In this document: positions 13,705 through 49,258 of the stretch, in pieces
Layout: every line of letters begins with the position of its first letter
Numbering within the stretch: position 1 is the stretch's first letter
Position numbers and translations under genes: made by a program
The notes under the pieces: model-generated
What the model saw: only the letters and a program-made list of their open reading frames with translations
Database searches by the model: none
What the model was told of the DNA's origin: nothing
NCBI GenBank assembly: GCA_013359225.1
Contig: JABWCG010000001.1
Span: forward strand, 276,441-340,440
Reading direction: 5' to 3'
Source of the DNA: Candidatus Buchananbacteria bacterium
GTDB taxonomy: Bacteria > Patescibacteriota > Patescibacteriia > Buchananbacterales > UBA6539
Length of the DNA: 64,000 nt

Positions 13705-13851
13705 ATGACTGAAGAAAATTCTCTACAAAAATTTATCAAAGATCTCAAAGAACAAAGAGCAGCGTTGCTTAATGGGTATGCAGATAATCAAAGTTTAGAA
13801 AAACTTTCAGAAAATTTTGATAAAATTATTACAACAGATGAAAATAACTAA
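13705..13851 (+). CDS. Small (48 aa) predicted helical protein, translationally coupled to the downstream ATPase.
   Basis: ATG 13 nt after a TATAAT box (13687-13692). The stop codon overlaps the ATPase start (ATGAAAATAACTAA). AT-rich island composition. Confidence 0.45.
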   Translation: MTEENSLQKFIKDLKEQRAALLNGYADNQSLEKLSENFDKIITTDENN

Positions 13852-16225
13852 ACTGACAATTAACGGGTTTCGAGGCTTTAATGAGAAAGAAGTTATTGAT
13901 GTAAATAATAATATAGTTATTATTTATGGTTTAAATGGTTCTGGAAAAAGCAGTTTTACGGAGGCATTAGAATGGTTATTTTTTGACGCAATTAGTCGGC
14001 AAAGGTTATCAAGATGTAAATCTGACTACAGATATGAAGAATATTTAAAAAATGTATTTTATACAGGAAGTGAGCATCCTTTCGTTGAGGTAGAGGGAAT
14101 TTTAGATGGAAAAAACATTAAATTAAGAAAAGAGATGGCATCCGGAGGGAATAAACATTATATTGATGACATAGAAAAAGAAAATTTTAAATCACTAAAT
14201 TTAAAATTGGATGATTATTTTAGACCAATGCTAGCTCAAACAGAAATTAAATCTTTGGTAGATTCTGAGCAAAAAGATCGATGGGAACAACTATCTAGTA
14301 TCTTAGGTCAAGATAGTCTGACGAAACTGCGTGAAAGTTTAATGCAGCTAAAAAGTCAAAAACGAGATGATTCTTACAAAAGCACTGAAAGAATTTGGCA
14401 ATCTGTTGTAGTTGAAACAGAATCACTTGCTGAATTGAAATTATTAGTAGATCCTTTAAAGAAATTAGATGAAAAATCTGTTTTAGAAAAAGTTAATGAA
14501 GTTTTTGGTACAAAAGAGTTGGCCTCTTTAGAGGCGCTAGCTGAGAAGATTAAAATAAAACAAAAGGCTTCTTTAAATACAGAGGTAGGTAAAAGAGTGG
14601 CCCAAGTGAATTATCAAGAAATTAAAACAATTGAGCCATATTTAGGAGAACTTAAGTACTACGCTGAAAAATTGGAAGAATTTTCTCATCAATCAACAAA
14701 AGATGGGGTAAATCATAGACACATTAACTTTTTAAAAACAGGGTTAGAGTTTTGTAATCCACCAGAATGTCCTTATTGTACTGAAAAGACAATCACAGAA
14801 CAAAAGATTAAAAATATAGAAGACACTATCCATAAAGCTAAAGATGCTAGTAAAGCGATGGAAAGCATAGACGAAAATAAAAAACTTTTAGAAATTTGGG
14901 AGTCTGGATTAGCGTCAGAAGTAGAGAAAATTTTTCCAGATCGACGAGAACTTAAATTAATCTCACAAAATTTAATGAGTTTGCAAGAGATTGATTTGGC
15001 GGCATTAGTTCAGGGACTAGAAAAAGATATTGATAGCTATAAGTTAGAAATTAAAAAGTTTGTTATTACACAGAAGGGTGCTTTGTATTCATATTTACGA
15101 AATAAATATTTTGTTTCAGGATCAACTGATGATGTGTACCCGGAAGATCTTGATAAGGTCGTAGGCTTTGTTGAGGATAAATTCATTCATGCTAATCAAA
15201 GATGGAACGAAATAAAAATTAAAATTACTGAAAAACTGCCAAATTTTGGAGAAGATGACACTGCAGAGATAAAAAAATGGTTTGTTTTAGAAAAAATTGT
15301 AAAGTTTTTTTACAACAATAAAAAATTTATTAAAAAAACAAAGTTACTGGACGTAGTAGAAAAGTTAAGATTAGACTTAGAAAATTATGAAAAATCAGAG
15401 GTTGACAGACTTCTGCAGGAACATTCTGAAGAAATCAAAAGTTACTATGACTCTTTGAATCCTAATGATGATGTAAAATTTTCAAAGATAGAAGTTGGTG
15501 ATGGCGTAAGAAGACAAGCAAAACTAAAAGGAGAGGCTTATGGCCAGGATATTAATCCTGTAACATTTTTCAGTGAAGCGCACACTAACAGTCTTGCTTT
15601 AAGTATTTACTTTCCACAAAGAGTTGACAGAAATACTACTTGGAATACGGTTGTTTTAGACGACCCTGTTCAATCAATGGACGAGAATCATTCACACGCT
15701 TTATTAAAAATATTATCAGATATCTCGGAAAAAAAACAAATTATAATTTTAACTCACTCAAAATCTTTTGCTAGGAAAGCCTCAGCATTATTTTCTCATA
15801 AAAATCCTTTAGGGTATTCATTTTATTACAATGATAAAAAGGGTCCTAAGGTAGAAATAAACAATGCAGAAACACTTACATATTTAGATAGGGCAGAAGA
15901 TCAAGCTAAAAAGGGAGATCCGAAGTCACTAGAAGAAGCTTCTCAAAATTTAAGAAAGTCTATAGAATCTCTATGTTTTGAATTTCTTATATCAAAAGGA
16001 GTAGGATTTAATACAGCTAAGAAAAAACAAGAAGAGGGGCTTAAAACTTTATTTTCAGTCTCGGAAAGTAATGGTCTTCCTTCTAGTGAGATTAGTAAGA
16101 TGAAAAGTTTTCTAGATACCTCGCATGCTAACTCTCATGCATGGAGTGTCGCAGACACAACTCCCGGAGGTGTTAACCTAGGAATAAAAGAAATGCGAGG
16201 GATTTATTCTACTTATTTAGCATAA
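13838..16225 (+). CDS. Rad50/SMC-like ABC ATPase with a coiled-coil zinc hook and a C-terminal ~140-aa domain; candidate RloC-like anticodon nuclease or defense ATPase.
   Basis: MKITKLTINGFRGF...IIYGLNGSGKSS Walker A. Long K/E-rich coiled coil containing CNPPECPYC (CxxC hook). Degenerate signature FSEAHTNSLALSIYF, Walker B/D-loop VVLDDPVQSMD, H-loop IILTHSK. About 30% GC versus about 42% in the flanks. Confidence 0.6.
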   Translation: MKITKLTINGFRGFNEKEVIDVNNNIVIIYGLNGSGKSSFTEALEWLFFDAISRQRLSRCKSDYRYEEYLKNVFYTGSEHPFVEVEGILDGKNIKLRKEMASGGNKHYIDDIEKENFKSLNLKLDDYFRPMLAQTEIKSLVDSEQKDRWEQLSSILGQDSLTKLRESLMQLKSQKRDDSYKSTERIWQSVVVETESLAELKLLVDPLKKLDEKSVLEKVNEVFGTKELASLEALAEKIKIKQKASLNTEVGKRVAQVNYQEIKTIEPYLGELKYYAEKLEEFSHQSTKDGVNHRHINFLKTGLEFCNPPECPYCTEKTITEQKIKNIEDTIHKAKDASKAMESIDENKKLLEIWESGLASEVEKIFPDRRELKLISQNLMSLQEIDLAALVQGLEKDIDSYKLEIKKFVITQKGALYSYLRNKYFVSGSTDDVYPEDLDKVVGFVEDKFIHANQRWNEIKIKITEKLPNFGEDDTAEIKKWFVLEKIVKFFYNNKKFIKKTKLLDVVEKLRLDLENYEKSEVDRLLQEHSEEIKSYYDSLNPNDDVKFSKIEVGDGVRRQAKLKGEAYGQDINPVTFFSEAHTNSLALSIYFPQRVDRNTTWNTVVLDDPVQSMDENHSHALLKILSDISEKKQIIILTHSKSFARKASALFSHKNPLGYSFYYNDKKGPKVEINNAETLTYLDRAEDQAKKGDPKSLEEASQNLRKSIESLCFEFLISKGVGFNTAKKKQEEGLKTLFSVSESNGLPSSEISKMKSFLDTSHANSHAWSVADTTPGGVNLGIKEMRGIYSTYLA

Positions 16226-19335: not shown

Positions 19336-19712
19336 TGTCTAAGCAAATCGATAAGCCGAATTTTGTACCGCGCTTGAAAGCGTGGTGATGGTCATCTATC
19401 TAGGCCATTTGTCGCCAAATGACTCAAGCTGCCTACCTAATTTGGCATTGCACCTGGTAGGTGTTTACCACACCGACTGTTACCAGTCAGACGTGCGTGG
19501 GCTCTTACCCCACGATTTCAACCTTACCGGTCGCAACGAGTGCGACTTGGGCGGTATATTTTCTGTTGCACTTGCCCTAGGCTTCGCAACAGAATAGAAG
19601 CCTTAAGAACTTCTACTCTTTTACTTATTCCCGGCTCCCGTTAGGAGCTACCTTTTGTAATGGTGTTCGGACTTTCCTCCCTCCACATGAAAACGCACCG
19701 TCTTGTTATTTG
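19330..19712 (-). ncRNA. rnpB: RNase P RNA (bacterial type).
   Basis: On the minus strand: GGAGGGAGGAAAGUCCGAACACC (P4 5' strand consensus GAGGAAAGUCCGGGCUCC), GGUAAGAGCCCACGCAC, and ACAAAAUUCGGCUUAUCG (P4 3' strand consensus ACARAAYYCGGCUUAUCG). Ends are approximate. Confidence 0.85.
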
Positions 19713-19931
19713 CCGTAAAAAATCTGTATAACTTTTGGTATTACTGTTCTATTTCTTCGAAATAAACCGTACCTGCATCTTTTACCAGTAAATTTGCCAA
19801 TGCGCTTTCAGGTGGAGGGCGACCATCTAATTTACTTAGACTAAAATAGACTAGCACAAATTTACTGACTTGTCAAGTTTAGTTGATTTTCAACCCCATT
19901 TTTGCTATGCTAAACGCTAGAAACTAGACTT

Positions 19932-31878: not shown

Positions 31879-32022
31879 ATGAGGCTCTACCGCTTGTTAC
31901 CAGACGAGACTCGAGTGCCGTTCTTGTCCGCAATTCGCAAATGGCTGAAAAAACGCCATTACCATAAAAAACACGCCAAAAAGAAACGGCGCCAAACAAC
32001 CAACCACATCAGTGGTTCCTAA
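31879..32022 (+). CDS. Small highly basic protein (47 aa).
   Basis: Strong SD caaGGAGGgtttcactATG; sequence MRLYRLLPDETRVPFLSAIRKWLKKRHYHKKHAKKKRRQTTNHISGS. Confidence 0.4.
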   Translation: MRLYRLLPDETRVPFLSAIRKWLKKRHYHKKHAKKKRRQTTNHISGS

Positions 32023-32092
32023 AACCGAGCGTCAACTTTCCGACCTCGGTTTTTTATTTAAACTACTTTTGTGGTATAATTTAAACAAATTT

Positions 32093-32470
32093 ATGGTTAA
32101 TAATCTTGCAGCCTCTGCCTTTAAATACATTATTATTGATTTAATCGGCGATATTTTATATTGGCCGATTTGGTGGTATTCAAAAGGACTCTTAAAAGCG
32201 ACAAAGGCATCGATCAACGCCATAATCAACCAGGAGCGTTCGCTTGGTCTGGGGATTTGGGTAAAAAATATTTTTACTCCGATGTTTGGCCAGTATGATA
32301 TTGAAGGCAGAATTATTAGTTTTTTTGCCCGACTGATTCAAATTATCGTCCGAAGCATTATTCTGTTCGTCTGGGCGGTTGTTGTACTGCTTTTCTATCT
32401 GTTTTGGCTAATTCTGCCGGTAATTGTCGTCTACGAAATCTACTATAATATTTTAGGATTATTCGCCTAA
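32093..32470 (+). CDS. Hypothetical integral membrane protein (about 125 aa, 3-4 TM).
   Basis: Extended -10 TGGTATAAT at 32062-32070; the ATG at 32093 was preferred over the 32012 ORF start. Hydrophobic helices throughout. Confidence 0.55.
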   Translation: MVNNLAASAFKYIIIDLIGDILYWPIWWYSKGLLKATKASINAIINQERSLGLGIWVKNIFTPMFGQYDIEGRIISFFARLIQIIVRSIILFVWAVVVLLFYLFWLILPVIVVYEIYYNILGLFA

Positions 32471-32472
32471 CT

Positions 32473-35241
32473 ATGGCCGAAAAAGAAGTCCAAAAAATTA
32501 GTCTGACATTTCTTAGTTGTCCGACGTGCGGCGGCCAGGGATACCAAAACGGCAAACACTGCCTTGATTGCGAGACGGTTAGTGTAATCGCCTGGGACGG
32601 CAGCCGGGTGTTGCAGTGGGGTAAAAAAATAGATTTTTTGCACATTGCCCAGGAAAAACTGGAATTAACGGTCAAAAACACCATCAATTTTTTACTGTTA
32701 TTGGTTGGGCTGGTTGGTGTTGCTTTTCTGGGGTGGTTTATTTATGATTTCACTCAAACTAAATTTACTCTCAACCAAATATTGTCGGCGCATGACTGGC
32801 GCTTATTATTATTTTGGCTTTCAGTCTTGACTGACGGCTATTTATACTACCGATTTCAACGAGAAGTGGAAAAAATCAGTTATATTCCGAAGAAAAAATT
32901 TGATCAAGCCCCTGTTCAGTTACCGGCCGTTACCTGGCCGCAGGCAAAAAATATCGGCAAAGCCAAAAAAGAAGAGATTTCAAAATATTTTAATTTTGAA
33001 GCCCAAACGGCGATTTCCAAAGCTTGGGAATTGGCGAATAAATATGACGACGCTTATGTCAATCCAATTCATTTGTTAATTTCTCTGTTAACATTCCAGC
33101 AAACGCAGATTATTTTCAGTCGTCTAGGGATACCATTCAATAATTTGAAAAGTAAAATCAGGAATAATTTAACATTTCAATCGCCAAAAACTCAAGATCC
33201 GGTTGCTTTTTCTCAGTCAGTCTGGCAAATCATCTACAACGCTTATTTTCGAGCATATCAACTCCGGCAGAAAAAAGTTGATGTTACCGAATTGCTTGAA
33301 GAATTAGCCAATCAGGATAATGAAGTTAAAGAATTATTATACGATCTTAATGTCACAAGTGATAAAATTCAAAACGTTGTCGCTTGGCTCCGAATCAGAA
33401 AACAACTAACCGAAAACTGGAATCGTTTTCGTCGTCGCGCGTCGCTTAAGCCAAAAGGCAATATGGACCGGGCAATGACGGCCATTGCCACGCCGGTAAT
33501 TGACGCTTTTAGTAACGATATGACTTATTTGGCGCGCAGCGGGTATTTAATGCCGTGTGTTGGCCGGGAGCAGCAAATTGAAGATATTTTTAATATTATG
33601 CAGGGCGCTAACCGCCGCAGCGCTTTACTGGTCGGTAATCCGGGAGTTGGCAGAAACACCATTGTTGAAGGAATTGCCAATTTGATGGCCGAAGAGGCAG
33701 TGCCGGAATTTTTACAGGATAAACGACTGGTCAGTTTAAGTATTGCCAAGCTCGTTAGTGGTACAACACCAACCCAAGCCCAGGAGCGACTAATGATGAT
33801 CATTAATGAAATCAGACGGTCGGGCAATATTGTTTTATATATCAATGATATTCATAATATGGTTGGTATCAGTGCCGGACAGCAGGGGAGTATTGATCTT
33901 GCCGATGTTTTATCACAGGCACTTAACACTAATACGGTTTTAGCAATCGCCAGCACCACCCCAAATGATTACCGACGCTACCTTGAAGGAAAAAGTTCAA
34001 TCGATAACGTTTTTCAAAAAGTTGAGATTAAAGAAGTGTCCGGCAATGAAGCAATTCAAATTTTGGAATCAAAAGTCGGATCATTTGAATATAAAAATGA
34101 AGTTTTCTTTTCTTATGATGCCATTGCCCAGACTGTAAAATTGTCCGAACGCTACCTTCATGACCGCTATTTGCCAGAAAAAGCCATTGAAATTATTGAG
34201 GAGGTTTCCGCTGTCGTCAGACAACAAAAGGGAAAAAATGCCATTGTCACCGCCAATGACGTCGCTTTGGTTGTTTCCAGAAAAACCAATATTCCTTTAA
34301 CCGAAATTACCCAAGAAGAGTCGGCAAAACTACTGGGCCTGGAAGATAAAATCCATCAAAGAGTCATTGATCAAACCGAAGCCGTTAAAATGGTTTCAGC
34401 TGCTTTGCGCCGCGCCCGGGCCGAAATGAGAGACATTTCGCGGCCGATTGTAAACCTGCTATTTTTAGGACCAACTGGTGTTGGAAAAACTGAATTGGCC
34501 AAAACCGTCGCTGAAGTTTATTTTGGTGACGAAAAAAACATGATCCGGCTTGATATGTCAGAGTATCAGGAAAAGTCCAGCATTTCGCGCTTGATTGGCG
34601 CGCCGCCCGGTATGGGGAGCAGTGAAGGCGGTTATTTATCCGAAGCAATCAGAAAAAATCCGTTTTCACTGATCTTGCTTGATGAGTTAGAAAAAGCACA
34701 CCCCGATATTCTCAACATCTTTTTGCAAATTATGGACGATGGTCGCTTGACCGATAATATCGGCCGGACTATTGATTTTACTAACTCAATTATCATCGCC
34801 ACATCAAACGCCGGCACCAGATTCATCCAAGATAAAGTTAAAGAAGGTCAAAGTGTTGAACAAATTAAACAACAGCTAATGGATGTTGAATTGCACCAGT
34901 ATTTCCGGCCGGAATTTTTAAACCGGTTTGACGGTATTATTGTTTTCAAGCCCCTATCAATTCAAAACGTTGAAGAAATCGCCAAGCTGATGACCAAAAA
35001 AGTCGCCAAAAATCTTGAAGAAAAGGGTATTACGCTGGAAGTCGAGCCGCAAGCGTTAGCGGAATTAGCACAGCAAGGCTATGATCCGGAATTTGGCGCC
35101 AGACCGTTACGAAGAATTATTCAGGAAAAAGTTCAAGATCCGATTGCTAACGAGCTTTTAGCGGGAAAAATTGGCCGCCGCGATACAATTATTTTTGGCG
35201 TCGGTGGTCGTATTAATGTTATTAAGGCCAAAGAAATATAA
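32473..35241 (+). CDS. Clp/Hsp100-type AAA+ ATPase (ClpC/ClpB-like, two NBDs) with an N-terminal zinc ribbon and two TM helices; NBD1 appears degenerate.
   Basis: CPTCGG...CLDCE ribbon; two hydrophobic helices; Clp_N-like repeat. NBD1 Walker A reads GNPGVGRNT and Walker B reads YINDIH, both non-canonical. NBD2 is canonical (GPTGVGKTELAK, LILLDELEKAH, sensor/Clp D2-small region). Confidence 0.8.
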   Translation: MAEKEVQKISLTFLSCPTCGGQGYQNGKHCLDCETVSVIAWDGSRVLQWGKKIDFLHIAQEKLELTVKNTINFLLLLVGLVGVAFLGWFIYDFTQTKFTLNQILSAHDWRLLLFWLSVLTDGYLYYRFQREVEKISYIPKKKFDQAPVQLPAVTWPQAKNIGKAKKEEISKYFNFEAQTAISKAWELANKYDDAYVNPIHLLISLLTFQQTQIIFSRLGIPFNNLKSKIRNNLTFQSPKTQDPVAFSQSVWQIIYNAYFRAYQLRQKKVDVTELLEELANQDNEVKELLYDLNVTSDKIQNVVAWLRIRKQLTENWNRFRRRASLKPKGNMDRAMTAIATPVIDAFSNDMTYLARSGYLMPCVGREQQIEDIFNIMQGANRRSALLVGNPGVGRNTIVEGIANLMAEEAVPEFLQDKRLVSLSIAKLVSGTTPTQAQERLMMIINEIRRSGNIVLYINDIHNMVGISAGQQGSIDLADVLSQALNTNTVLAIASTTPNDYRRYLEGKSSIDNVFQKVEIKEVSGNEAIQILESKVGSFEYKNEVFFSYDAIAQTVKLSERYLHDRYLPEKAIEIIEEVSAVVRQQKGKNAIVTANDVALVVSRKTNIPLTEITQEESAKLLGLEDKIHQRVIDQTEAVKMVSAALRRARAEMRDISRPIVNLLFLGPTGVGKTELAKTVAEVYFGDEKNMIRLDMSEYQEKSSISRLIGAPPGMGSSEGGYLSEAIRKNPFSLILLDELEKAHPDILNIFLQIMDDGRLTDNIGRTIDFTNSIIIATSNAGTRFIQDKVKEGQSVEQIKQQLMDVELHQYFRPEFLNRFDGIIVFKPLSIQNVEEIAKLMTKKVAKNLEEKGITLEVEPQALAELAQQGYDPEFGARPLRRIIQEKVQDPIANELLAGKIGRRDTIIFGVGGRINVIKAKEI

Positions 35242-35253
35242 CCGTCTTTCACA

Positions 35254-36300
35254 ATGATCTACTTACTAGCCGTTTTAACGGGCACTGCGTTTTCCCTCAT
35301 TTTAACCCCGTTTATCAGAAAACTTGCTCTTCATCATCAGATTGTTGATTTGCCAAACCCGAGAAAAATTCATTCTACACCAACGCCACTACTCGGCGGT
35401 TTGGCGATTTTTTTCGCGTTTTTTTTCAGCACCTTAATTTTTTGGTTTGCCGGCTATATTGAAGACAGCCGAATAACACAAACACAAGTTTTAGCTATCT
35501 TGTGCGCCGGCGCAGCATTAATGATTGGCGGGGTACTAGACGACAAATTTAATCTCAAGCCAGCACAACAAATCATCTGGCCTCTTATTGCCATCGCTTT
35601 AATGATTACTGCCGGCGTCAAAATTCAATTTGTTACCAACCCGCTTGGCGGCGTGCTGGAATTCTCGTCTTTATTAGGAGTTATTACTGCCAGCCTGTGG
35701 ATTTTAGGAATGATTTATACCACTAAATTTTTAGACGGTTTAGACGGCTTGGTGGCCGGTATTACCACCATTGGAGCCACTATTATTTTTATTGTCAGCT
35801 TATACTGGGACGTACCATTATCTGGCACCTCAATCTTGTCTCTTATCCTGGCTGGCAGTTGTCTGGGTTTTTTAGTTTTCAACTGGCATCCGGCAAAAAT
35901 ATTTCTTGGAGAAGGGGGCAGTATTTTTTGCGGCTTCATGTTGGGGACCTTGGCTATTATTTCCGGCTCAAAAATTGCCACAGCGCTGTTGATTATGGGT
36001 GTGCCAATTCTCGACGTTGCCTGGGTTATTGTTCGCCGAATTTGGGAAGGCCGTTCACCGGTTTCAGCAGACCGCAAACACTTGCATTTTCGTCTTTTAG
36101 ATATTGGCCTAAATCACCGCCAGTCAGTTATAGTATTATATCTGATTACGATTGCATTTGGTACAACCTCGCTATGGCTTCACTCTAAAGGAAAAATTAT
36201 CGCTTTAGGAATTTTAGGAATCTTTATGGTACTATTAATTACCAGCTTAGTCTGGACATATCAACAAAAAATTAAAAATGACCAAGCAACAAAAAATTAA
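35254..36300 (+). CDS. MraY/WecA-family (GT4 polyprenyl-phosphate HexNAc-1-P transferase) membrane enzyme.
   Basis: Ten or so TM helices; DDKFNL and LDGLDGLVAGI motifs; HLHF loop. Confidence 0.75.
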   Translation: MIYLLAVLTGTAFSLILTPFIRKLALHHQIVDLPNPRKIHSTPTPLLGGLAIFFAFFFSTLIFWFAGYIEDSRITQTQVLAILCAGAALMIGGVLDDKFNLKPAQQIIWPLIAIALMITAGVKIQFVTNPLGGVLEFSSLLGVITASLWILGMIYTTKFLDGLDGLVAGITTIGATIIFIVSLYWDVPLSGTSILSLILAGSCLGFLVFNWHPAKIFLGEGGSIFCGFMLGTLAIISGSKIATALLIMGVPILDVAWVIVRRIWEGRSPVSADRKHLHFRLLDIGLNHRQSVIVLYLITIAFGTTSLWLHSKGKIIALGILGIFMVLLITSLVWTYQQKIKNDQATKN

Positions 36301-36730
36301 ATCCCTCCTGCTGTTTTTCGGCTTAATTGTTGGGCTATTGATTATCTACCTTGCTAACCAACATTTTGATAAAGGCACTGTCGCCCTTAATGGCAACCGC
36401 GTTAAAGTAGAAATTGCCAGCACCCCGCAACAATGGGCCCAAGGCCTTTCAAATCGTGACGGTTTAAAGCAAAATAATGGTTTATTGTTTGTCTACCCGG
36501 ACTATCTCTACCGCAATTTTTGGATGAAAGATATGAAATTTGAAATAGACATTATCTGGATTGCGGAAAATAAAATTGTCGGCATTGAAAAAAATGTGCC
36601 ACTACCAACAACTGTCCCAATTCCAACCTATCGGTCCCCAAAACCAGTCAATTACGTTTTAGAAGTAACCGCCGGGTATGCCGACCAGCACCATCTGCAA
36701 ATCGGCGATCCAGTAATATTTAACCTATGA
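36278..36730 (+). CDS. DUF192 (COG1430) family protein.
   Basis: NGNRVKVEIASTPQQWAQGLSNRDGL...LLFVYPD...MKDMKFEIDIIWI pattern of DUF192; N-terminal TM/signal. Confidence 0.65.
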   Translation: MTKQQKIKSLLLFFGLIVGLLIIYLANQHFDKGTVALNGNRVKVEIASTPQQWAQGLSNRDGLKQNNGLLFVYPDYLYRNFWMKDMKFEIDIIWIAENKIVGIEKNVPLPTTVPIPTYRSPKPVNYVLEVTAGYADQHHLQIGDPVIFNL

Positions 36731-38217
36731 AAGTAATCTTGAAAAAAATAGGGAAGTTAGAAATCATTATTTTTGTTTCCGGTTCAGTGGTAATGGTGCT
36801 TGAACTTATCGGTTCAAGAATCGTTGCGCCGTATCTTGGAACTTCAATTTTTGTTTGGGCATCATTGATTGGTATTATTTTAGGCGCTTTAAGCTTAGGC
36901 TACTATCTTGGCGGGCGGTTTTCCAAAACTAATCCGAATCTCCAATTTCTTGGTCGCACTTTACTTTTGGCCGGTTTATCAATTCTGCTAATTACCCTGA
37001 TCCAAAAACCGGTTCTCACTCTTGCCATGCAGCTTGGCGTAAAGACGGGTTCGGTGGTGGCAACGCTCGGCCTGTTTACCATTCCCAGTATCATCATGGG
37101 TATTGTGTCGCCGTATGCCATTCGTCTAAAAACCGACACCGTTGAACACGCCGGAGGTGTCGCCGGGAATTTATATGCTCTCTCAACTATTGGCAGCATT
37201 GCCGGAACTTTTTTAGCCGGGTTTTATTTAATACCAACGTTTGGCAGTCAGCAAATCCTTTTTGGGCTCAGTATTACTCTCATTCTAGTTTCTCTTTTGG
37301 CTAATAAAAATATCTTTAGTTTCTTGATTTTATTATTAGCATTTAACCTGCTTGGTTTTTCTTCGTTAACTGATTCAAAATTTGTCTATGAATCAGAAAG
37401 TGCGTATAACCATATCATTGTAAAAGACGGCGTTGATAAATCGGGCCGCCAGGTTAGAGCCCTATATTTGGCAACTGAATTGCATTCAATTATCTACAAA
37501 GATTCAACTGAGCTCGCCTCAAAATACCATCAAAATTATGCTTTAGATACTTTATTTAAACCAGACATCGCTACGGCGTTGAGTTTAGGCGGCGGGGCAT
37601 ACGTTGCACCTCAAGATTTTTTGCGCCGTTTCCCCGACGCCAAAATGACTGTGGTAGAAATTGATCCTGAAGTTACCGCCGTTGCCCGTGATTTTTTTGG
37701 GTTAAAGTCCAATCCGCGGCTAACTATCCGCCACGAAGATGGCCGAATTTTTCTAAATAATAATCAAGAAAAGTTTGATGTCATTTATGGTGACGCCTTT
37801 GCTTCGTACTATTCAATCCCGTTTCAACTGACAACAGCAGAGGCAGTAAAAAAAATGCATGATGCACTGACTGACGACGGCATTTTAATTTTAAATGTTA
37901 TTTCCGGCCTGGATGGCGACCGCGCAAAATTTTTAAATGCTGAATATTTAACTATTAAACAGTACTTCCCACAGATCTATTTGTTCCCCGTTGATTTTCG
38001 TGACGAGGCTAATTTTGATAAAATCCAAAATATTGTTTTGATTGCGACAAAAAATTCCAATCGGCTTTCAAAAGAAGAGATGTTGAATCTGGCAAATGCT
38101 AATCAAGTCCCATATGTTAATAATCTTTGGGAACAGCAACCAAATATCAAACCGACTGACCGGATTCTAACTGACGATTTCGCACCCGTTGACTACTATA
38201 TTTCAAAATTTCTCTAG
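36727..38217 (+). CDS. Membrane-fused spermidine synthase-like (polyamine aminopropyltransferase family) protein.
   Basis: N-terminal multi-TM domain plus a C-terminal SAM-dependent spermidine-synthase fold (VVEIDPEVTAVARDFF, IYGDAFAS). Confidence 0.7.
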   Translation: MKVILKKIGKLEIIIFVSGSVVMVLELIGSRIVAPYLGTSIFVWASLIGIILGALSLGYYLGGRFSKTNPNLQFLGRTLLLAGLSILLITLIQKPVLTLAMQLGVKTGSVVATLGLFTIPSIIMGIVSPYAIRLKTDTVEHAGGVAGNLYALSTIGSIAGTFLAGFYLIPTFGSQQILFGLSITLILVSLLANKNIFSFLILLLAFNLLGFSSLTDSKFVYESESAYNHIIVKDGVDKSGRQVRALYLATELHSIIYKDSTELASKYHQNYALDTLFKPDIATALSLGGGAYVAPQDFLRRFPDAKMTVVEIDPEVTAVARDFFGLKSNPRLTIRHEDGRIFLNNNQEKFDVIYGDAFASYYSIPFQLTTAEAVKKMHDALTDDGILILNVISGLDGDRAKFLNAEYLTIKQYFPQIYLFPVDFRDEANFDKIQNIVLIATKNSNRLSKEEMLNLANANQVPYVNNLWEQQPNIKPTDRILTDDFAPVDYYISKFL

Positions 38218-42049: not shown

Positions 42050-42125
42050 GGGTCCATAGCTCAGTTGGTAGAGCAGCTCCCTTTTAAGGAGATGGTCGGA
42101 GGTTCGAATCCTCCTGGACCCACCA
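42050..42125 (+). tRNA. tRNA-Lys (anticodon UUU), CCA encoded.
   Basis: Cloverleaf read by hand: acceptor gggtcca/tggaccc, D-arm gctc..gagc, anticodon loop cUUUUaa, T-arm ggagg-ttcgaat-cctcc, 3' ACCA. Confidence 0.9.
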
Positions 42126-47192: not shown

Positions 47193-47268
47193 TGGAGCCG
47201 ACCGTGGGAATCGAACCCACAACCTACGGTTTACGATACCGTCGCTCTACCAATTGAGCTAGGTCGGC
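47193..47268 (-). tRNA. tRNA-Thr (anticodon CGU).
   Basis: Minus-strand cloverleaf: acceptor gccgacc/ggtcggc, anticodon stem acggt/accgt, loop aUCGUaa, T-arm gtggg-ttcgatt-cccac, 3' tcca. Confidence 0.85.
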
Positions 47269-47311: not shown

Positions 47312-47383
47312 AGCGGGTGAGCGGAGTCGAACCGCCGTCTTCAGCTTGGGAAGCTGACATAATAGCCGTTATACGACACCCGC
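47312..47383 (-). tRNA. tRNA-Gly (anticodon CCC).
   Basis: Minus-strand cloverleaf: acceptor gcgggtg/cacccgc, anticodon stem tcagc/gctga, loop uUCCCaa, T-arm ggcgg-ttcgact-ccgct; CCA not encoded. Confidence 0.8.
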
Positions 47384-49187: not shown

Positions 49188-49258
49188 TCGGGGGTCGTCT
49201 AATGGTAGGACAGCGGGTTTTGGTCCCGTCAATCTAGGTTCGAATCCTGGCCCCCGAG
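49188..49258 (+). tRNA. tRNA-Gln (anticodon UUG).
   Basis: U1:A72 pair (tcggggg/cccccga) typical of tRNA-Gln, anticodon stem gcggg/cccgt, loop uUUUGgu, T-arm ctagg-ttcgaat-cctgg; CCA not encoded. Confidence 0.8.

What the first reader, a model, noticed from the sequence alone, without database searches (positions are those of the whole stretch)
32473..35241. Membrane-anchored Clp/Hsp100 ATPase with an N-terminal zinc ribbon and a catalytically degenerate NBD1
Typical ClpA/B/C proteins are soluble. This one begins with a CPTCGG...CLDCE ribbon and two TM helices before a Clp_N-like repeat.

In NBD1 the Walker A lysine is replaced (GVGRNT instead of GVGKT). The Walker B DE is ND (YINDIH), predicting no ATP hydrolysis in ring 1. 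NBD2 is fully canonical.

The ClpP-binding loop and M-domain were not evident.

This suggests a specialised membrane-tethered unfoldase or disaggregase. It sits next to two small membrane/basic proteins (31879-32470) that may be partners.
Basis: partly seen in the sequence, partly recalled or inferred. Interest (0 to 1): 0.6.

Follow-up and report, generated by a model that had tools for sequence, protein, structure and literature searches.

The report
Membrane-anchored one-motor Clp ATPase of CPR bacteria
This gene encodes a membrane-embedded relative of the ClpB/ClpC protein-unfolding machines, found in hundreds of ultra-small CPR (Patescibacteria) species, in which one of the two ATP engines is dead, the usual substrate-gripping tyrosines are not kept, and a small membrane protein is always encoded next to it; its job is still unknown.

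Summary
ORF 32473-35241 (922 aa) is a two-ring Clp/Hsp100 ATPase. It starts with a four-cysteine zinc finger, a strong transmembrane helix and a weaker second helix, followed by a full Clp N-domain.

NBD1 is degenerate:
- Walker A is GVGRN (K to R, T to N, no insertion).
- Walker B is ND instead of DE.
- Arg fingers are NV.
- There is no pore tyrosine.

NBD2 keeps every ATPase residue, but it is not "fully canonical": Met replaces the pore-loop tyrosine. The M-domain and the ClpP-docking loop are absent.

This is a conserved Patescibacteria family, not an oddity of one genome. None of 179 members has an intact NBD1 Walker B. All keep the NBD2 catalytic residues. Only 23-43% keep an aromatic NBD2 pore residue. 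Most members have a DnaJ-type (CxxCxGxG) zinc finger.

A 125-aa membrane protein (32093-32470) lies directly upstream in 64 of 66 species loci. A WecA-like transferase usually follows. The 47-aa basic ORF is not a partner.

Best reading: a ClpP-independent, DnaK-uncoupled, NBD2-driven membrane remodelling ATPase. Its substrate is unknown and classical threading is doubtful. It is a new variant of a known kind.

The parts
32021..32053 (+). Hairpin followed by a U-run (intrinsic-terminator-like). It separates the 47-aa basic ORF from the partner-Clp unit.
   Evidence: RNA fold gives -15.2 kcal/mol, z = -6.0, with 0 of 200 shuffles folding as well. Sequence read. The consensus scanner missed it because the loop exceeds 8 nt.
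32072..32080 (+). TGgTATAAT, an extended -10-like element 12 nt upstream of the partner ATG. Putative promoter of the partner-Clp operon.
   Evidence: Read directly from the sequence. Not detected by the two-hexamer scan because it has no -35. This is an inference only.
32093..32470 (+). Conserved 125-aa membrane partner, with no Pfam or NCBIfam family. It is a helical hairpin with a strongly hydrophobic C-terminal TM (aa about 89-117), a W/Y-rich N-terminal helix with conserved Asp residues, and an Arg stripe (R73/R80/R87).
   Evidence: Homologues share 46-62% identity and start at this Met. 96 homologues were found, all from Patescibacteria and all annotated 'hypothetical'. The AF2 model has pLDDT 91.7 with helices H5-51 and H70-124. 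There is no structural neighbour in the PDB. In 64 of 66 species loci the gene lies immediately upstream of the Clp gene. Hydropathy is; invariant residues are.
32473..35241 (+). Membrane-anchored Clp/Hsp100 ATPase, 922 aa.
32518..32571 (+). Four-Cys zinc finger (aa 16-33). The first motif, CPTCGGQG, matches CxxCxGxG. The second, CLDCETVS, has lost its glycines in this genome.
   Evidence: The Cys are nearly invariant. 19/22 family N-termini match Pfam DnaJ_CXXCXGXG and 14/22 match Anti-TRAP; all matches are below the gathering threshold. AF2 places beta strands at aa 12-48.
32680..32748 (+). TM helix 1 (aa 70-92).
   Evidence: Kyte-Doolittle peak 2.46. Family mean 1.86. It lies inside AF2 helix 55-96.
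32794..32853 (+). Weakly hydrophobic conserved helix 2 (aa 108-127; family motif FWLSLLxDxYLxYR). Probably the returning arm of a membrane hairpin.
   Evidence: KD is 0.31 in the query and 0.90 in the family. Charge distribution favours N-in/C-in. D121, Y123, Y126 and R127 are nearly invariant. AF2 helix 109-134.
32995..33444 (+). Clp N-domain (aa 175-324; two four-helix repeats).
   Evidence: Pfam Clp_N. hhalign against the EcClpB N-domain: 94.6% probability, E 7e-8. Eight helices in the AF2 model.
33445..33495 (+). Highly conserved but disordered linker (aa 325-341; family motif KPKxxMNRAMTAxATP). Function unknown.
   Evidence: Mean identity to the query is 74%, the highest of any segment. 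T336 is invariant and R333, M335 and A337 are nearly invariant. pLDDT is below 50 for aa 323-336.
33496..34242 (+). NBD1 with its lid (aa 342-590), a catalytically degenerate pseudo-ATPase ring. Walker A GNPGVGRN is at 33634-33657. Walker B LYIND is at 33835-33849. Arg-finger positions are N512/V513. There is no pore-loop Tyr.
   Evidence: Alignments to ClpC, ClpA and ClpB. Family statistics.
34345..35190 (+). NBD2 with the D2-small domain (aa 625-906), the only competent ATPase. Walker A GPTGVGKT is at 34468-34491. Walker B ends in DE at 34669-34686. The pore loop GAPPGMGSSEGG at 34597-34632 has Met714 in place of Tyr.
   Evidence: Pfam AAA_2 and ClpB_D2-small. All catalytic residues are kept in 114/114 and 65/65 members.
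35254..36300 (+). WecA/TagO-like polyprenyl-phosphate HexNAc-1-P transferase (Glycos_transf_4), 12 nt downstream. A frequent neighbour; a functional link is not shown.
   Evidence: Pfam. NCBIfam ECA_wecA at E 6.5e-35, below its cut-off. It lies downstream of the Clp gene in 51/66 species loci. It also follows the NBD2-less variants in 3/3 contexts. One MAG carries an in-frame fusion.

Best explanation
The gene encodes a Patescibacteria-specific, membrane-integrated derivative of the ClpC/ClpB lineage of Hsp100 ATPases. It is made together with a dedicated 125-aa membrane protein, with stop and start 2 nt apart here and overlapping in other species.

A DnaJ-type zinc finger and a two-helix membrane hairpin hold the Clp N-domain and the two AAA+ tiers at the cytoplasmic face of the membrane.

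NBD1 is a pseudo-ATPase. It keeps the P-loop glycines and its fold and is well conserved. It has lost the catalytic Glu, the Arg fingers and, in this genome, the Walker A Lys/Thr. It probably serves only as a structural ring, possibly one that still binds nucleotide.

NBD2 keeps Walker A and B, sensor 1, sensor 2 and the trans-acting Arg finger. It must therefore work as an oligomeric ATPase and is the only motor.

The protein cannot dock ClpP (no IGF/IGL loop) and cannot be coupled to DnaK through an M-domain. It therefore acts as a stand-alone remodelling ATPase on something at the membrane: the partner, membrane proteins or envelope-synthesis enzymes.

Neither ring keeps an aromatic pore-loop residue across the family. 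Processive polypeptide threading, as in ClpB, ClpC or ClpA, is therefore doubtful, and an ATP-driven grip-and-release or conformational-switch action is at least as likely.

Shown: architecture, motif states, family-wide conservation and gene linkage.
Inferred: hexamer formation, cytoplasmic orientation, physical complex with the partner and the nature of the substrate.
For: - Domain order and fold. Pfam finds Clp_N, AAA, AAA_lid_9, AAA_2 and ClpB_D2-small. The AF2 model has pLDDT 85.6. Foldseek matches ClpC and ClpB protomers with TM-score 0.86-0.88 and rmsd about 3.6 A over about 585 residues.
- NBD1 decay. No member has an intact Walker B DE (0/114 and 0/65). The catalytic Glu is present in 4/114 and 1/65. 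At least one Arg finger remains in 7/114 and 2/65. An NBD1 pore aromatic is present in 0/65 members; the Tyr251-equivalent column is a gap in 113/114.
- NBD1 is still under constraint. Mean identity to the query is 55%, and G391 and G393 are invariant.
- NBD2 is intact. K, T, D, E, N and both R are present in 114/114 and 65/65 members.
- No M-domain and no ClpP loop. A hydrophobic-Gly-hydrophobic tripeptide occurs in that region in only 5/114 members.
- All NCBIfam equivalog scores are far below their cut-offs.
- Membrane anchor.
- Zinc finger type.
- Partner linkage. It was present in 5/5 loci inspected by hand and in 64/66 GTDB species loci. Adjacent NCBI locus tags are seen.
- Distribution. 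The N-terminal module profile finds 521 clusters at 50% identity. All organism names given by sources are CPR lineages.
Against: - There is no experimental or expression evidence.
- Oligomeric state, topology and partner binding are inferred.
- TM2 is only marginally hydrophobic, so a single-pass topology with an external zinc finger is not excluded.
- 23-43% of members, including the closest relatives P0002-P0004, still have Tyr or Phe in the NBD2 pore loop. The query has Met, a hydrophobic residue. Some threading ability may therefore persist.
- Variants of about 600 aa without NBD2 occupy the same genomic position in other CPR lineages. This suggests the core function may lie in the N-terminal half and may not need ATP hydrolysis at all.
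Confidence: 0.55

Rival explanations
1. It is a non-threading regulator or scaffold of envelope glycopolymer initiation. The N-terminal module, Clp N-domain and pseudo-NBD1 bind the neighbouring WecA/TagO-like transferase in the membrane. Where NBD2 is present, it supplies an ATP-dependent switch.
For: - The Glycos_transf_4 gene lies 12 nt downstream here and downstream in 51/66 species loci, often within 0-12 nt.
- All three NBD2-less variant contexts keep the same neighbour at 5, 19 and 80 nt.
- One MAG has an in-frame Clp-GT4 fusion that removes the transferase's first TM helix.
- The pore loops are not conserved.
- The neighbour is WecA-like rather than MraY.
Against: - The whole block (tgt ... 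Clp, GT4, L21, RecR, YbaB, DnaB) is syntenic across these lineages. Adjacency may therefore only reflect conserved gene order among unrelated genes.
- 15/66 loci lack the transferase nearby, and the Kerfeldbacteria locus has another gene there.
- The fusion is a single MAG contig and could be an assembly or deletion artefact.
- No Hsp100 is known to regulate a WecA-type enzyme (own knowledge).
Confidence: 0.2
2. It is a ClpB-type disaggregase that happens to be membrane-tethered. It would extract aggregated proteins together with DnaK/DnaJ.
For: - The highest NCBIfam score is to ClpB (633.7 bits).
- NBD2 is 49% identical to E. coli ClpB.
- There is no ClpP loop, as in ClpB.
- One NBD2-less relative sits next to hrcA-grpE-hsp20-dnaK-dnaJ.
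- The zinc finger is of the DnaJ type.
Against: - The M-domain, which in ClpB/Hsp104 mediates DnaK/Hsp70 coupling (established knowledge), is completely absent.
- The score is about half the ClpB cut-off of 1232.
- NBD1 is dead and both pore-loop tyrosines are missing or not conserved.
Confidence: 0.08
3. It is what the databases call it: the ATP-binding subunit of a Clp protease (ClpC/ClpA/ClpE-like) that feeds membrane substrates to ClpP.
For: - Source annotations read 'ATP-dependent Clp protease ATP-binding subunit (ClpC)'.
- The best solved-structure matches are ClpC.
- ClpE and ClpX also carry N-terminal zinc modules (own knowledge).
Against: - The ClpP-docking tripeptide loop is deleted relative to ClpC and ClpA and absent in 109/114 members.
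- The ClpA equivalog score of 576.9 is below the cut-off of 993.
- No clpP is present in the 64-kb window. This is weak evidence, because the contig is 601 kb.
Confidence: 0.05
4. It is a decaying gene or an annotation artefact: a wrong start, or a pseudogenised ClpC.
For: Many catalytic residues are substituted in NBD1, and the NBD2 pore loop is variable.
Against: - The 922-codon frame is intact, and the full length is conserved in hundreds of species from residue 1.
- NBD2 catalytic residues are invariant.
- The N-module has nearly invariant residues.
- The same substitutions (R394 in 26/114, N395 in 23/114) recur in relatives, so they are not sequencing errors.
Confidence: 0.01

Closest known systems
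ClpC (B. subtilis, S. aureus, M. tuberculosis ClpC1)
   Same: It is the best sequence and structure match: phmmer E 8e-152, and Foldseek TM-score 0.86-0.88 over both AAA+ tiers. It shares the Clp N-domain, two NBDs and the D2-small domain.
   Different: The window protein has no short M-domain and no VGF ClpP-docking loop. Its NBD1 Walker A, Walker B and Arg fingers are degenerate, and both pore tyrosines are missing. It adds a zinc finger and a membrane hairpin at the N-terminus and has a dedicated membrane partner.
ClpB / Hsp104
   Same: It is ClpP-independent, with no docking loop. NBD2 is 49% identical to E. coli ClpB. ClpB gives the highest NCBIfam score.
   Different: There is no coiled-coil M-domain, so no DnaK coupling. 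NBD1 is inactive. The pore-loop Tyr251 and Tyr653 equivalents are absent. The protein is membrane-anchored.
ClpA
   Same: It has no M-domain. ClpA aligns as one continuous stretch, query 341-900 to ClpA 167-725.
   Different: There is no IGL loop. NBD1 is dead, whereas ClpA D1 binds and hydrolyses ATP. Similarity is lower, at 30% identity.
ClpE and ClpX (N-terminal zinc-binding Clp ATPases)
   Same: All carry a Cys4 zinc module at the extreme N-terminus of a Clp ATPase. In ClpX that module binds adaptors and substrates (own knowledge).
   Different: Here the motif is the DnaJ/anti-TRAP CxxCxGxG type and is followed by membrane helices. ClpE and ClpX are soluble and dock ClpP.
Two-tier AAA+ machines with one inactive ring (NSF D2, p97/Cdc48 D1, Pex1/Pex6 D1)
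   Same: One tier keeps its fold, and often nucleotide binding, as an assembly scaffold, while the other tier does the work. This is an analogy from established knowledge.
   Different: Those belong to the classical AAA clade, not to Hsp100. Their active ring keeps aromatic pore loops, whereas this family does not.
Membrane-anchored AAA+ extractors and proteases (FtsH, Msp1/ATAD1, archaeal LonB)
   Same: An AAA+ ring is tethered to the cytoplasmic face of a membrane by N-terminal TM helices. This is a plausible functional analogy.
   Different: They have a single AAA tier with conserved aromatic pore loops, and FtsH and LonB also carry a protease domain. There is no homology in the anchor and no protease domain here.
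DnaJ-type zinc-finger membrane proteins (plant Orange, LQY1, BSD2-like; bacterial anti-TRAP)
   Same: They share a single CxxCxGxG...CxxCxGxG zinc centre. Family members give Pfam hits to DnaJ_CXXCXGXG, Anti-TRAP and BSD2_CRD. Orange and LQY1 are membrane-anchored holdases (own knowledge).
   Different: Those proteins have no AAA+ ATPase. The matches here fall below Pfam gathering thresholds, and the query's second motif has lost its glycines.

Membership tests
Class-I Clp/Hsp100 AAA+ (two-NBD) | Tandem AAA+ modules with AAA_lid_9 and the C-terminal D2-small domain | tested here: met
   Pfam finds AAA at 385-497, AAA_lid_9 at 525-590, AAA_2 at 657-820 and ClpB_D2-small at 828-906. Foldseek TM-score to ClpC and ClpB is 0.86-0.88.
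Class-I Clp/Hsp100 AAA+ (two-NBD) | Clp N-terminal domain (double four-helix repeat) | tested here: met
   Pfam Clp_N at E 2.3e-4. hhalign to the EcClpB N-domain gives 94.6% probability, E 7e-8, over 129 columns. Eight helices at aa 175-324 in the AF2 model.
Class-I Clp/Hsp100 AAA+ (two-NBD) | NBD1 Walker A GxxxxGK[ST] and Walker B hhhhDE | tested here: not met
   The query has GNPGVGRN and YIND. No family member has DE (0/114 and 0/65).
Class-I Clp/Hsp100 AAA+ (two-NBD) | NBD1 arginine fingers (ClpB R331/R332) | tested here: not met
   The query has N512/V513. An Arg remains in only 7/114 and 2/65 members.
Class-I Clp/Hsp100 AAA+ (two-NBD) | NBD2 Walker A, Walker B, sensor 1, Arg finger and sensor 2 | tested here: met
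   K672, T673, D737, E738, N779, R818 and R877 are present. They are invariant in 114/114 and 65/65 members.
Class-I Clp/Hsp100 AAA+ (two-NBD) | Aromatic pore-loop residues (ClpB Y251 in KYRG, Y653 in GYVG) | tested here: not met
   In NBD1 the residue is deleted (no aromatic in 65/65; the Tyr251-equivalent column is a gap in 113/114). In NBD2 the query has Met714, and an aromatic is present in 49/114 and 15/65 members.
ClpB / Hsp104 disaggregase | Coiled-coil M-domain inserted in the NBD1 small domain | tested here: not met
   The roughly 125-residue ClpB segment 405-530 is a gap in all 114 members.
ClpB / Hsp104 disaggregase | NCBIfam TIGR03346 equivalog score at or above the cut-off | tested here: not met
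   633.7 bits against a cut-off of 1232.1.
ClpA/ClpC/ClpE (ClpP-partner unfoldases) | ClpP-docking hydrophobic-Gly-hydrophobic loop (IGL/VGF) after NBD2 sensor 1 | tested here: not met
   There is a 7-residue gap opposite the ClpC 'VGFNVQD' and no such tripeptide in the query. A tripeptide of this kind is present in only 5/114 members.
ClpA/ClpC/ClpE (ClpP-partner unfoldases) | NCBIfam ClpA equivalog score at or above the cut-off | tested here: not met
   TIGR02639 scores 576.9 against 993.15, and PRK11034 scores 416 against 1350.
ClpA/ClpC/ClpE (ClpP-partner unfoldases) | A clpP gene in the same genome | not testable with these tools
   tblastn with E. coli ClpP finds nothing in the 64-kb window. 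The contig is 601 kb, and the rest is not available.
ClpK / ClpG / ClpV | NCBIfam model score at or above the cut-off | tested here: not met
   ClpK scores 521.6 against 1900, ClpG 518.3 against 1900 and TssH 490.9 against 884.95.
DnaJ-type (CxxCxGxG) zinc finger | Paired CxxCxGxG motifs recognised by PF00684 | tested here: inconclusive
   19/22 family N-termini match PF00684 (best E 4.8e-5), all below gathering. The query itself does not match: its first motif CPTCGGQG fits, but its second, CLDCETVS, lacks the glycines.
Integral membrane protein (two-helix hairpin anchor) | Two hydrophobic segments long enough to span the bilayer, with positive-inside flanks | tested here: inconclusive
   TM1 is clear (KD 2.46). 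Helix 2 is weak (KD 0.31 in the query, 0.90 in the family). The flanks are basic and the loop is neutral. AF2 pairs the two helices. No dedicated topology predictor was available.

The most novel reading that the evidence does not exclude
The family is an Hsp100-derived membrane machine that has given up polypeptide threading. With its 125-aa partner, and perhaps the adjacent WecA-like transferase, it would form a CPR-specific membrane complex. NBD2 ATP hydrolysis would drive a conformational switch transmitted through the dead NBD1 ring, the conserved KPKxxMNRAMTA linker and the acidic membrane hairpin. Such a switch could control envelope-polymer initiation, or membrane-protein assembly in cells that live attached to hosts. 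The NBD2-less 600-aa relatives would be the ATP-independent form of the same device.
Probability: 0.2. Interest if true: 0.8.

Novelty: new variant of a known kind. Interest (0 to 1): 0.58.

Why it matters
Every characterised Hsp100 (ClpA, B, C, E, L, V, K, G and Hsp104) is soluble. Each relies on pore-loop tyrosines to pull polypeptides through its ring.

This lineage is present in at least several hundred Patescibacteria species and differs in several ways at once:
- it is built into the membrane;
- it runs on one motor;
- it has lost ClpP and DnaK coupling;
- it does not conserve the gripping residues;
- its single ATPase site remains invariant;
- it has a strictly linked small membrane partner.

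If it still remodels proteins, it shows how far the Hsp100 mechanism can be pared down. If it does not, it is an example of an unfoldase scaffold re-used for another membrane task in organisms whose envelope biology and host attachment are poorly understood.

Practically, the blanket annotation 'ATP-dependent Clp protease ATP-binding subunit (ClpC)' for these genes is misleading. Neither the N-terminal module nor the partner has a Pfam or NCBIfam model.

Tried and rejected
- The look-up of encoding contigs for the window protein itself returned nothing on record. Context was taken from homologues instead.
- A GTDB scan with the N-module alignment failed because it had no stretch conserved enough. 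The partner alignment was used instead.
- A Foldseek search with the partner model against the PDB gave only noise (best E 2.2). Pfam and NCBIfam gave nothing for the partner.
- tblastn with E. coli ClpP, ClpX, Lon and ClpS found no such genes in the window. Only the Clp gene itself was hit. The clpP question therefore stays open.
- Six literature searches and two paper look-ups found no description of a membrane-anchored Hsp100 or of this CPR family.
- The 47-aa basic ORF (31879-32022) was rejected as a partner. It is followed by a terminator-like hairpin. It has no homologue at the same position in L001 or L002 and no Pfam hit.
- The idea that the canonical K and DE are merely shifted was rejected. 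Three independent alignments place R394/N395 and N458/D459 exactly opposite K/T and D/E with no indel.
- The Clp-GT4 fusion (P0243) was considered as Rosetta-stone evidence. It was down-weighted because it comes from one MAG contig, and that copy has also lost the zinc-finger cysteines.
- The ORF upstream of the NBD2-less variant in L092 is not the partner (hhalign probability 0.2%).
- My first regex count of pore-loop aromatics was faulty, because 'NOTFOUND' strings were counted. It was replaced by an alignment-based count.

Full report
**What is at the coordinates**

The window carries an uninterrupted 922-codon ORF at 32473-35241 on the + strand. Its ATG is the first possible start after an in-frame stop. 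It lies two bases after the stop codon of the upstream gene.

An identical protein is on record from a Candidatus Buchananbacteria MAG on a 601,517-bp contig, annotated 'ATP-dependent Clp protease ATP-binding subunit' (P0001).

Pfam finds this domain order:
- Clp_N, weakly, at aa 186-229
- AAA at 385-497
- AAA_lid_9 at 525-590
- AAA_2 at 657-820
- ClpB_D2-small at 828-906

NCBIfam scores are about half the cut-offs of every named Hsp100 equivalog:

| Model | Score (bits) | Cut-off (bits) |
|---|---|---|
| ClpB | 634 | 1232 |
| ClpA | 577 | 993 |
| ClpK | 522 | 1900 |
| ClpG | 518 | 1900 |
| ClpV (TssH) | 491 | 885 |

The protein is therefore a class-I Clp/Hsp100 but none of the named kinds.

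phmmer against solved structures puts B. subtilis ClpC first (E 8e-152) and prints the alignment. MAFFT alignments of 114 family members with E. coli ClpA and ClpB give the same register.

NBD1:
- Walker A GEPGVGKT is GNPGVGRN. That is Lys to Arg394 and Thr to Asn395, with no insertion.
- Walker B IDE is IND (Asn458, Asp459).
- The two Arg fingers are Asn512 and Val513.
- The KYRG pore loop has lost its tyrosine.

NBD2:
- Walker A (K672, T673), Walker B (D737, E738), sensor 1 (N779), the Arg finger (R818) and sensor 2 (R877) are all canonical.
- The pore loop GAPPGYVGY reads GAPPGM-GS. Met714 replaces the tyrosine that is essential for translocation in ClpA, ClpB and Hsp104 (established knowledge).

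The ClpB M-domain region is one long gap, and the NBD1-NBD2 junction looks like ClpA. The ClpP-docking loop (VGF in ClpC, IGL in ClpA) falls in a 7-residue gap or aligns to KEGQSVE.

**The N-terminal 340 residues**

- The four cysteines (16, 19, 30, 33) are nearly invariant in the family.
- The family consensus is CPxCxGxG...CxxCxGxG. 19 of 22 family N-termini hit Pfam DnaJ_CXXCXGXG, 14 hit Anti-TRAP and 6 hit BSD2_CRD. All are below gathering thresholds.
- The query itself has degraded the second motif to CLDCETVS.
- TM1 (aa 70-92) is strongly hydrophobic.
- The second helix (aa 108-127; family motif FWLSLLxDxYLxYR) is conserved but weakly hydrophobic, and carries a nearly invariant Asp121.
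- AlphaFold, run with a 101-sequence alignment (mean pLDDT 85.6, pTM 0.76), models beta strands at aa 12-48, helices 55-96 and 109-134, then eight helices at aa 175-324.
- Basic residues flank both sides of the helix pair while the connecting loop is neutral. This favours an N-in/C-in hairpin with the ATPase in the cytoplasm. That topology is an inference.
- The eight-helix region is a complete Clp N-domain: hhalign to the EcClpB N-domain gives 94.6% probability, E 7e-8.
- Between it and NBD1 lies a segment, KPKGNMDRAMTAIATP. It is disordered in the model (pLDDT below 50) yet is the best conserved segment of all (74% mean identity; invariant T336). I have no explanation for it.

**It is a family, not an accident**

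- The full-length search returned 546 hits at E of 1e-50 or better. The best 120 are nearly all 870-945 aa (a few shorter, partial sequences), 46-74% identical and mostly cover 94-100% of the query. All names given by sources are Patescibacteria lineages: Buchanan-, Falkow- and Kerfeldbacteria, and the Parcubacteria group.
- A profile of the first 172 residues alone finds 521 clusters at 50% identity among 1.84 billion representatives, 199 of them at E of 1e-10 or better.

Two independent samples gave these family statistics. The first is 114 near relatives. The second is 65 proteins extracted from GTDB species-representative genomes.

| Feature | 114 near relatives | 65 GTDB species |
|---|---|---|
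| NBD1 Walker B DE intact | 0 | 0 |
| NBD1 catalytic Glu | 4 | 1 |
| NBD1 Walker A Lys | 87 | 53 |
| NBD1 Walker A Lys plus Thr/Ser | 46 | 19 |
| At least one Arg finger | 7 | 2 |
| NBD1 pore-loop aromatic | Tyr251-equivalent column: gap in 113, Arg in 1 | 0 |
| All seven NBD2 catalytic residues | 114 | 65 |
| NBD2 pore-loop aromatic | 49 | 15 |

- In members without an NBD2 pore aromatic, the loop is Gly/Ser-rich and often 4-6 residues shorter.
- Among relatives 66-74% identical to the query, that position is Y, Y, Y, S, T or Y. It is drifting freely.
- NBD1 as a whole is nevertheless conserved (55% mean identity, invariant P-loop glycines).

NBD1 is therefore a maintained pseudo-ATPase and NBD2 is a maintained ATPase. 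The canonical substrate-gripping residues are not under selection.

**Neighbours**

- The upstream ORF listed as 152 aa really starts at 32093. Homologues from three other loci align from that Met at 46-62% identity, and NCBI annotates it as a 125-aa hypothetical protein (P0121).
- It has no Pfam or NCBIfam match.
- It has 96 detected homologues, all from Patescibacteria.
- AF2 models it confidently (pLDDT 91.7) as a two-long-helix hairpin. The model has no structural neighbour in the PDB.
- Its C-terminal 30 residues are strongly hydrophobic.
- The gene abuts or overlaps the Clp start in every locus inspected by hand, including a Kerfeldbacteria contig where the gene caller had missed it.
- Of 66 loci with at least 3 kb of downstream sequence, 64 have the membrane Clp immediately downstream on the same strand. 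The two exceptions carry a different ORF of about 220-230 aa, not characterised, there instead.
- The 47-aa basic ORF (31879-32022) has a good Shine-Dalgarno sequence. It is followed by a stable hairpin and U-run (-15.2 kcal/mol, z = -6.0) and then by a TGgTATAAT element. It has no counterpart in other loci. It is not part of the unit.
- Downstream by 12 nt lies a Glycos_transf_4 gene that is WecA-like rather than MraY. It follows the Clp gene in 51 of 66 species loci.
- The entire block (tgt ... Clp, GT4, L21, RecR, YbaB, DnaB) is syntenic across these lineages. Adjacency alone is therefore weak evidence of a functional link.

**Relatives that sharpen the question**

- The N-module profile also found a set of proteins of about 590-630 aa. 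They end naturally just after the NBD1 lid, with tails such as ...VPYTKILK. They have no NBD2 at all and an even more degenerate NBD1.
- Three of them were traced to contigs. Each sits directly upstream of the same WecA-like gene (5, 19 and 80 nt). None has the 125-aa partner upstream. One lies beside hrcA-grpE-hsp20-dnaK-dnaJ.
- One MAG encodes an in-frame fusion of the two-ring protein to the transferase. It is a single contig, and the junction removes the transferase's first TM helix.
- Together these suggest that part of the function resides in the N-terminal half and may relate to the transferase. They do not prove it.

**Mechanism**

What is shown:
- a membrane-anchoring N-terminus;
- a zinc module of the kind DnaJ uses to bind clients;
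- an intact Clp N-domain;
- a dead but conserved NBD1;
- a fully competent NBD2 whose trans-acting Arg finger implies ring assembly;
- no means of docking ClpP;
- no M-domain for DnaK coupling;
- a strictly linked membrane partner.

What I infer:
- The protein forms a hexameric, cytoplasm-facing, stand-alone remodelling ATPase powered by NBD2 alone.
- It works on the partner or on other membrane-proximal proteins.
- Because pore-loop aromatics are dispensable in both rings, processive threading is doubtful.
- A short-stroke grip or a nucleotide-driven switch is as likely.

I put 0.55 on this general picture, 0.2 on the more specific envelope-regulator version and small probabilities on ClpB-like or ClpC-like conventional roles.

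**Comparison with known systems and novelty**

- The body is closest to ClpC and ClpB in sequence and in fold: Foldseek TM-score 0.86-0.88, rmsd about 3.6 A.
- It fails defining tests for ClpB (M-domain), for ClpA, ClpC and ClpE (ClpP loop), and for an active class-I Hsp100 (NBD1 motifs, pore tyrosines).
- Inactive-ring precedents exist in NSF, p97 and Pex1/6. Membrane-tethered AAA+ precedents exist in FtsH, Msp1 and LonB. To my knowledge none is an Hsp100.
- Six full-text searches found no description of this family.
- I class it as a new variant of a known kind. The sequences are in databases under a generic and misleading name. The architecture, the family-wide motif pattern and the partner do not appear to have been described.

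**Limits**

- Whether the genome has clpP, a second Hsp100 or FtsH cannot be told from 64 kb. None of ClpP, ClpX or Lon is in the window.
- Topology, oligomeric state, zinc binding and partner binding are all inferred.

Noticed in passing
window 13817-16225 (+): This 802-aa SMC/ABC-type ATPase lies in a low-GC segment: GC is 0.31 against about 0.41 elsewhere, with strong GC and AT skew. Its best PADLOC match is LmuB of Lamassu systems (E 4e-33). Pfam finds SMC_N, AAA_23, AAA_13 and AAA_15. It may be a horizontally acquired defence gene.
   Followed up: partly
P0274, P0275, P0289, P0314, P0318, P0321, P0344 and others; loci L009:8001-9896, L092:401-2221, L093:1470-3272: These relatives of about 590-630 aa have the same zinc-finger, membrane-hairpin and Clp_N module and a very degenerate NBD1, but no NBD2. 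They end in a conserved ...VPYTKILK tail. They sit at the same syntenic position, directly upstream of the WecA-like gene, and have no 125-aa partner. One lies next to hrcA-grpE-hsp20-dnaK-dnaJ.
   Followed up: partly
L011:4001-7696 (P0243, 1231 aa; same contig as L017): This is an in-frame fusion of the membrane Clp to the downstream Glycos_transf_4 in one MAG. The junction deletes the transferase's first TM helix, and this copy has also lost the zinc-finger cysteines. It could be a real fusion or an assembly artefact.
   Followed up: partly
window 33445-33495 (aa 325-341 of the Clp): The linker KPKxxMNRAMTAxATP between the N-domain and NBD1 is the most conserved segment of the protein (74% mean identity, invariant T336). 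AlphaFold nevertheless predicts it to be disordered (pLDDT below 50). It has no counterpart in ClpA, ClpB or ClpC.
   Followed up: no
window 31879-32022 (+), with hairpin 32021-32053: This 47-aa very basic ORF (MRLYRLLPDE...KKHAKKKRRQ) has an AAGGAGG Shine-Dalgarno sequence 8 nt upstream and a strong terminator-like hairpin right after its stop. It has no Pfam hit and is not found at this position in two related loci.
   Followed up: partly
L025:2848-3207 and L028:6646-7005: Two related genomes carry the 125-aa partner gene without the Clp gene downstream. A different ORF of about 220-230 aa follows instead; it was not characterised. Whether their Clp gene is elsewhere is unknown.
   Followed up: partly
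window 36727-38217 (+): A 496-aa protein matches NCBIfam 'fused MFS/spermidine synthase' (E 4e-84). It keeps its place downstream of the Clp-GT4 pair in several CPR loci.
   Followed up: no
window 19339-19713 (-): Bacterial RNase P RNA, class A (185 bits). Four tRNA genes lie at 42050-42122, 47196-47268, 47312-47383 and 49188-49258.
   Followed up: no
loci L017, L020-L022, L032, L034, L040 and others: Many GTDB records carrying this CPR-specific gene pair are titled 'uncultured Gammaproteobacteria bacterium' (TPA_asm MAGs). Single ones are titled Acutalibacteraceae or Planctomycetota. These titles look like mislabelling or mis-binning.
   Followed up: no
L003:7607-8014: In a Kerfeldbacteria contig the partner gene was not called by the source's gene finder. 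It is present, though, and overlaps the Clp start by 14 nt. That Clp (P0110) keeps Walker A GKT and both Arg fingers (RR) but has Walker B DD. It looks like a less decayed NBD1.
   Followed up: partly
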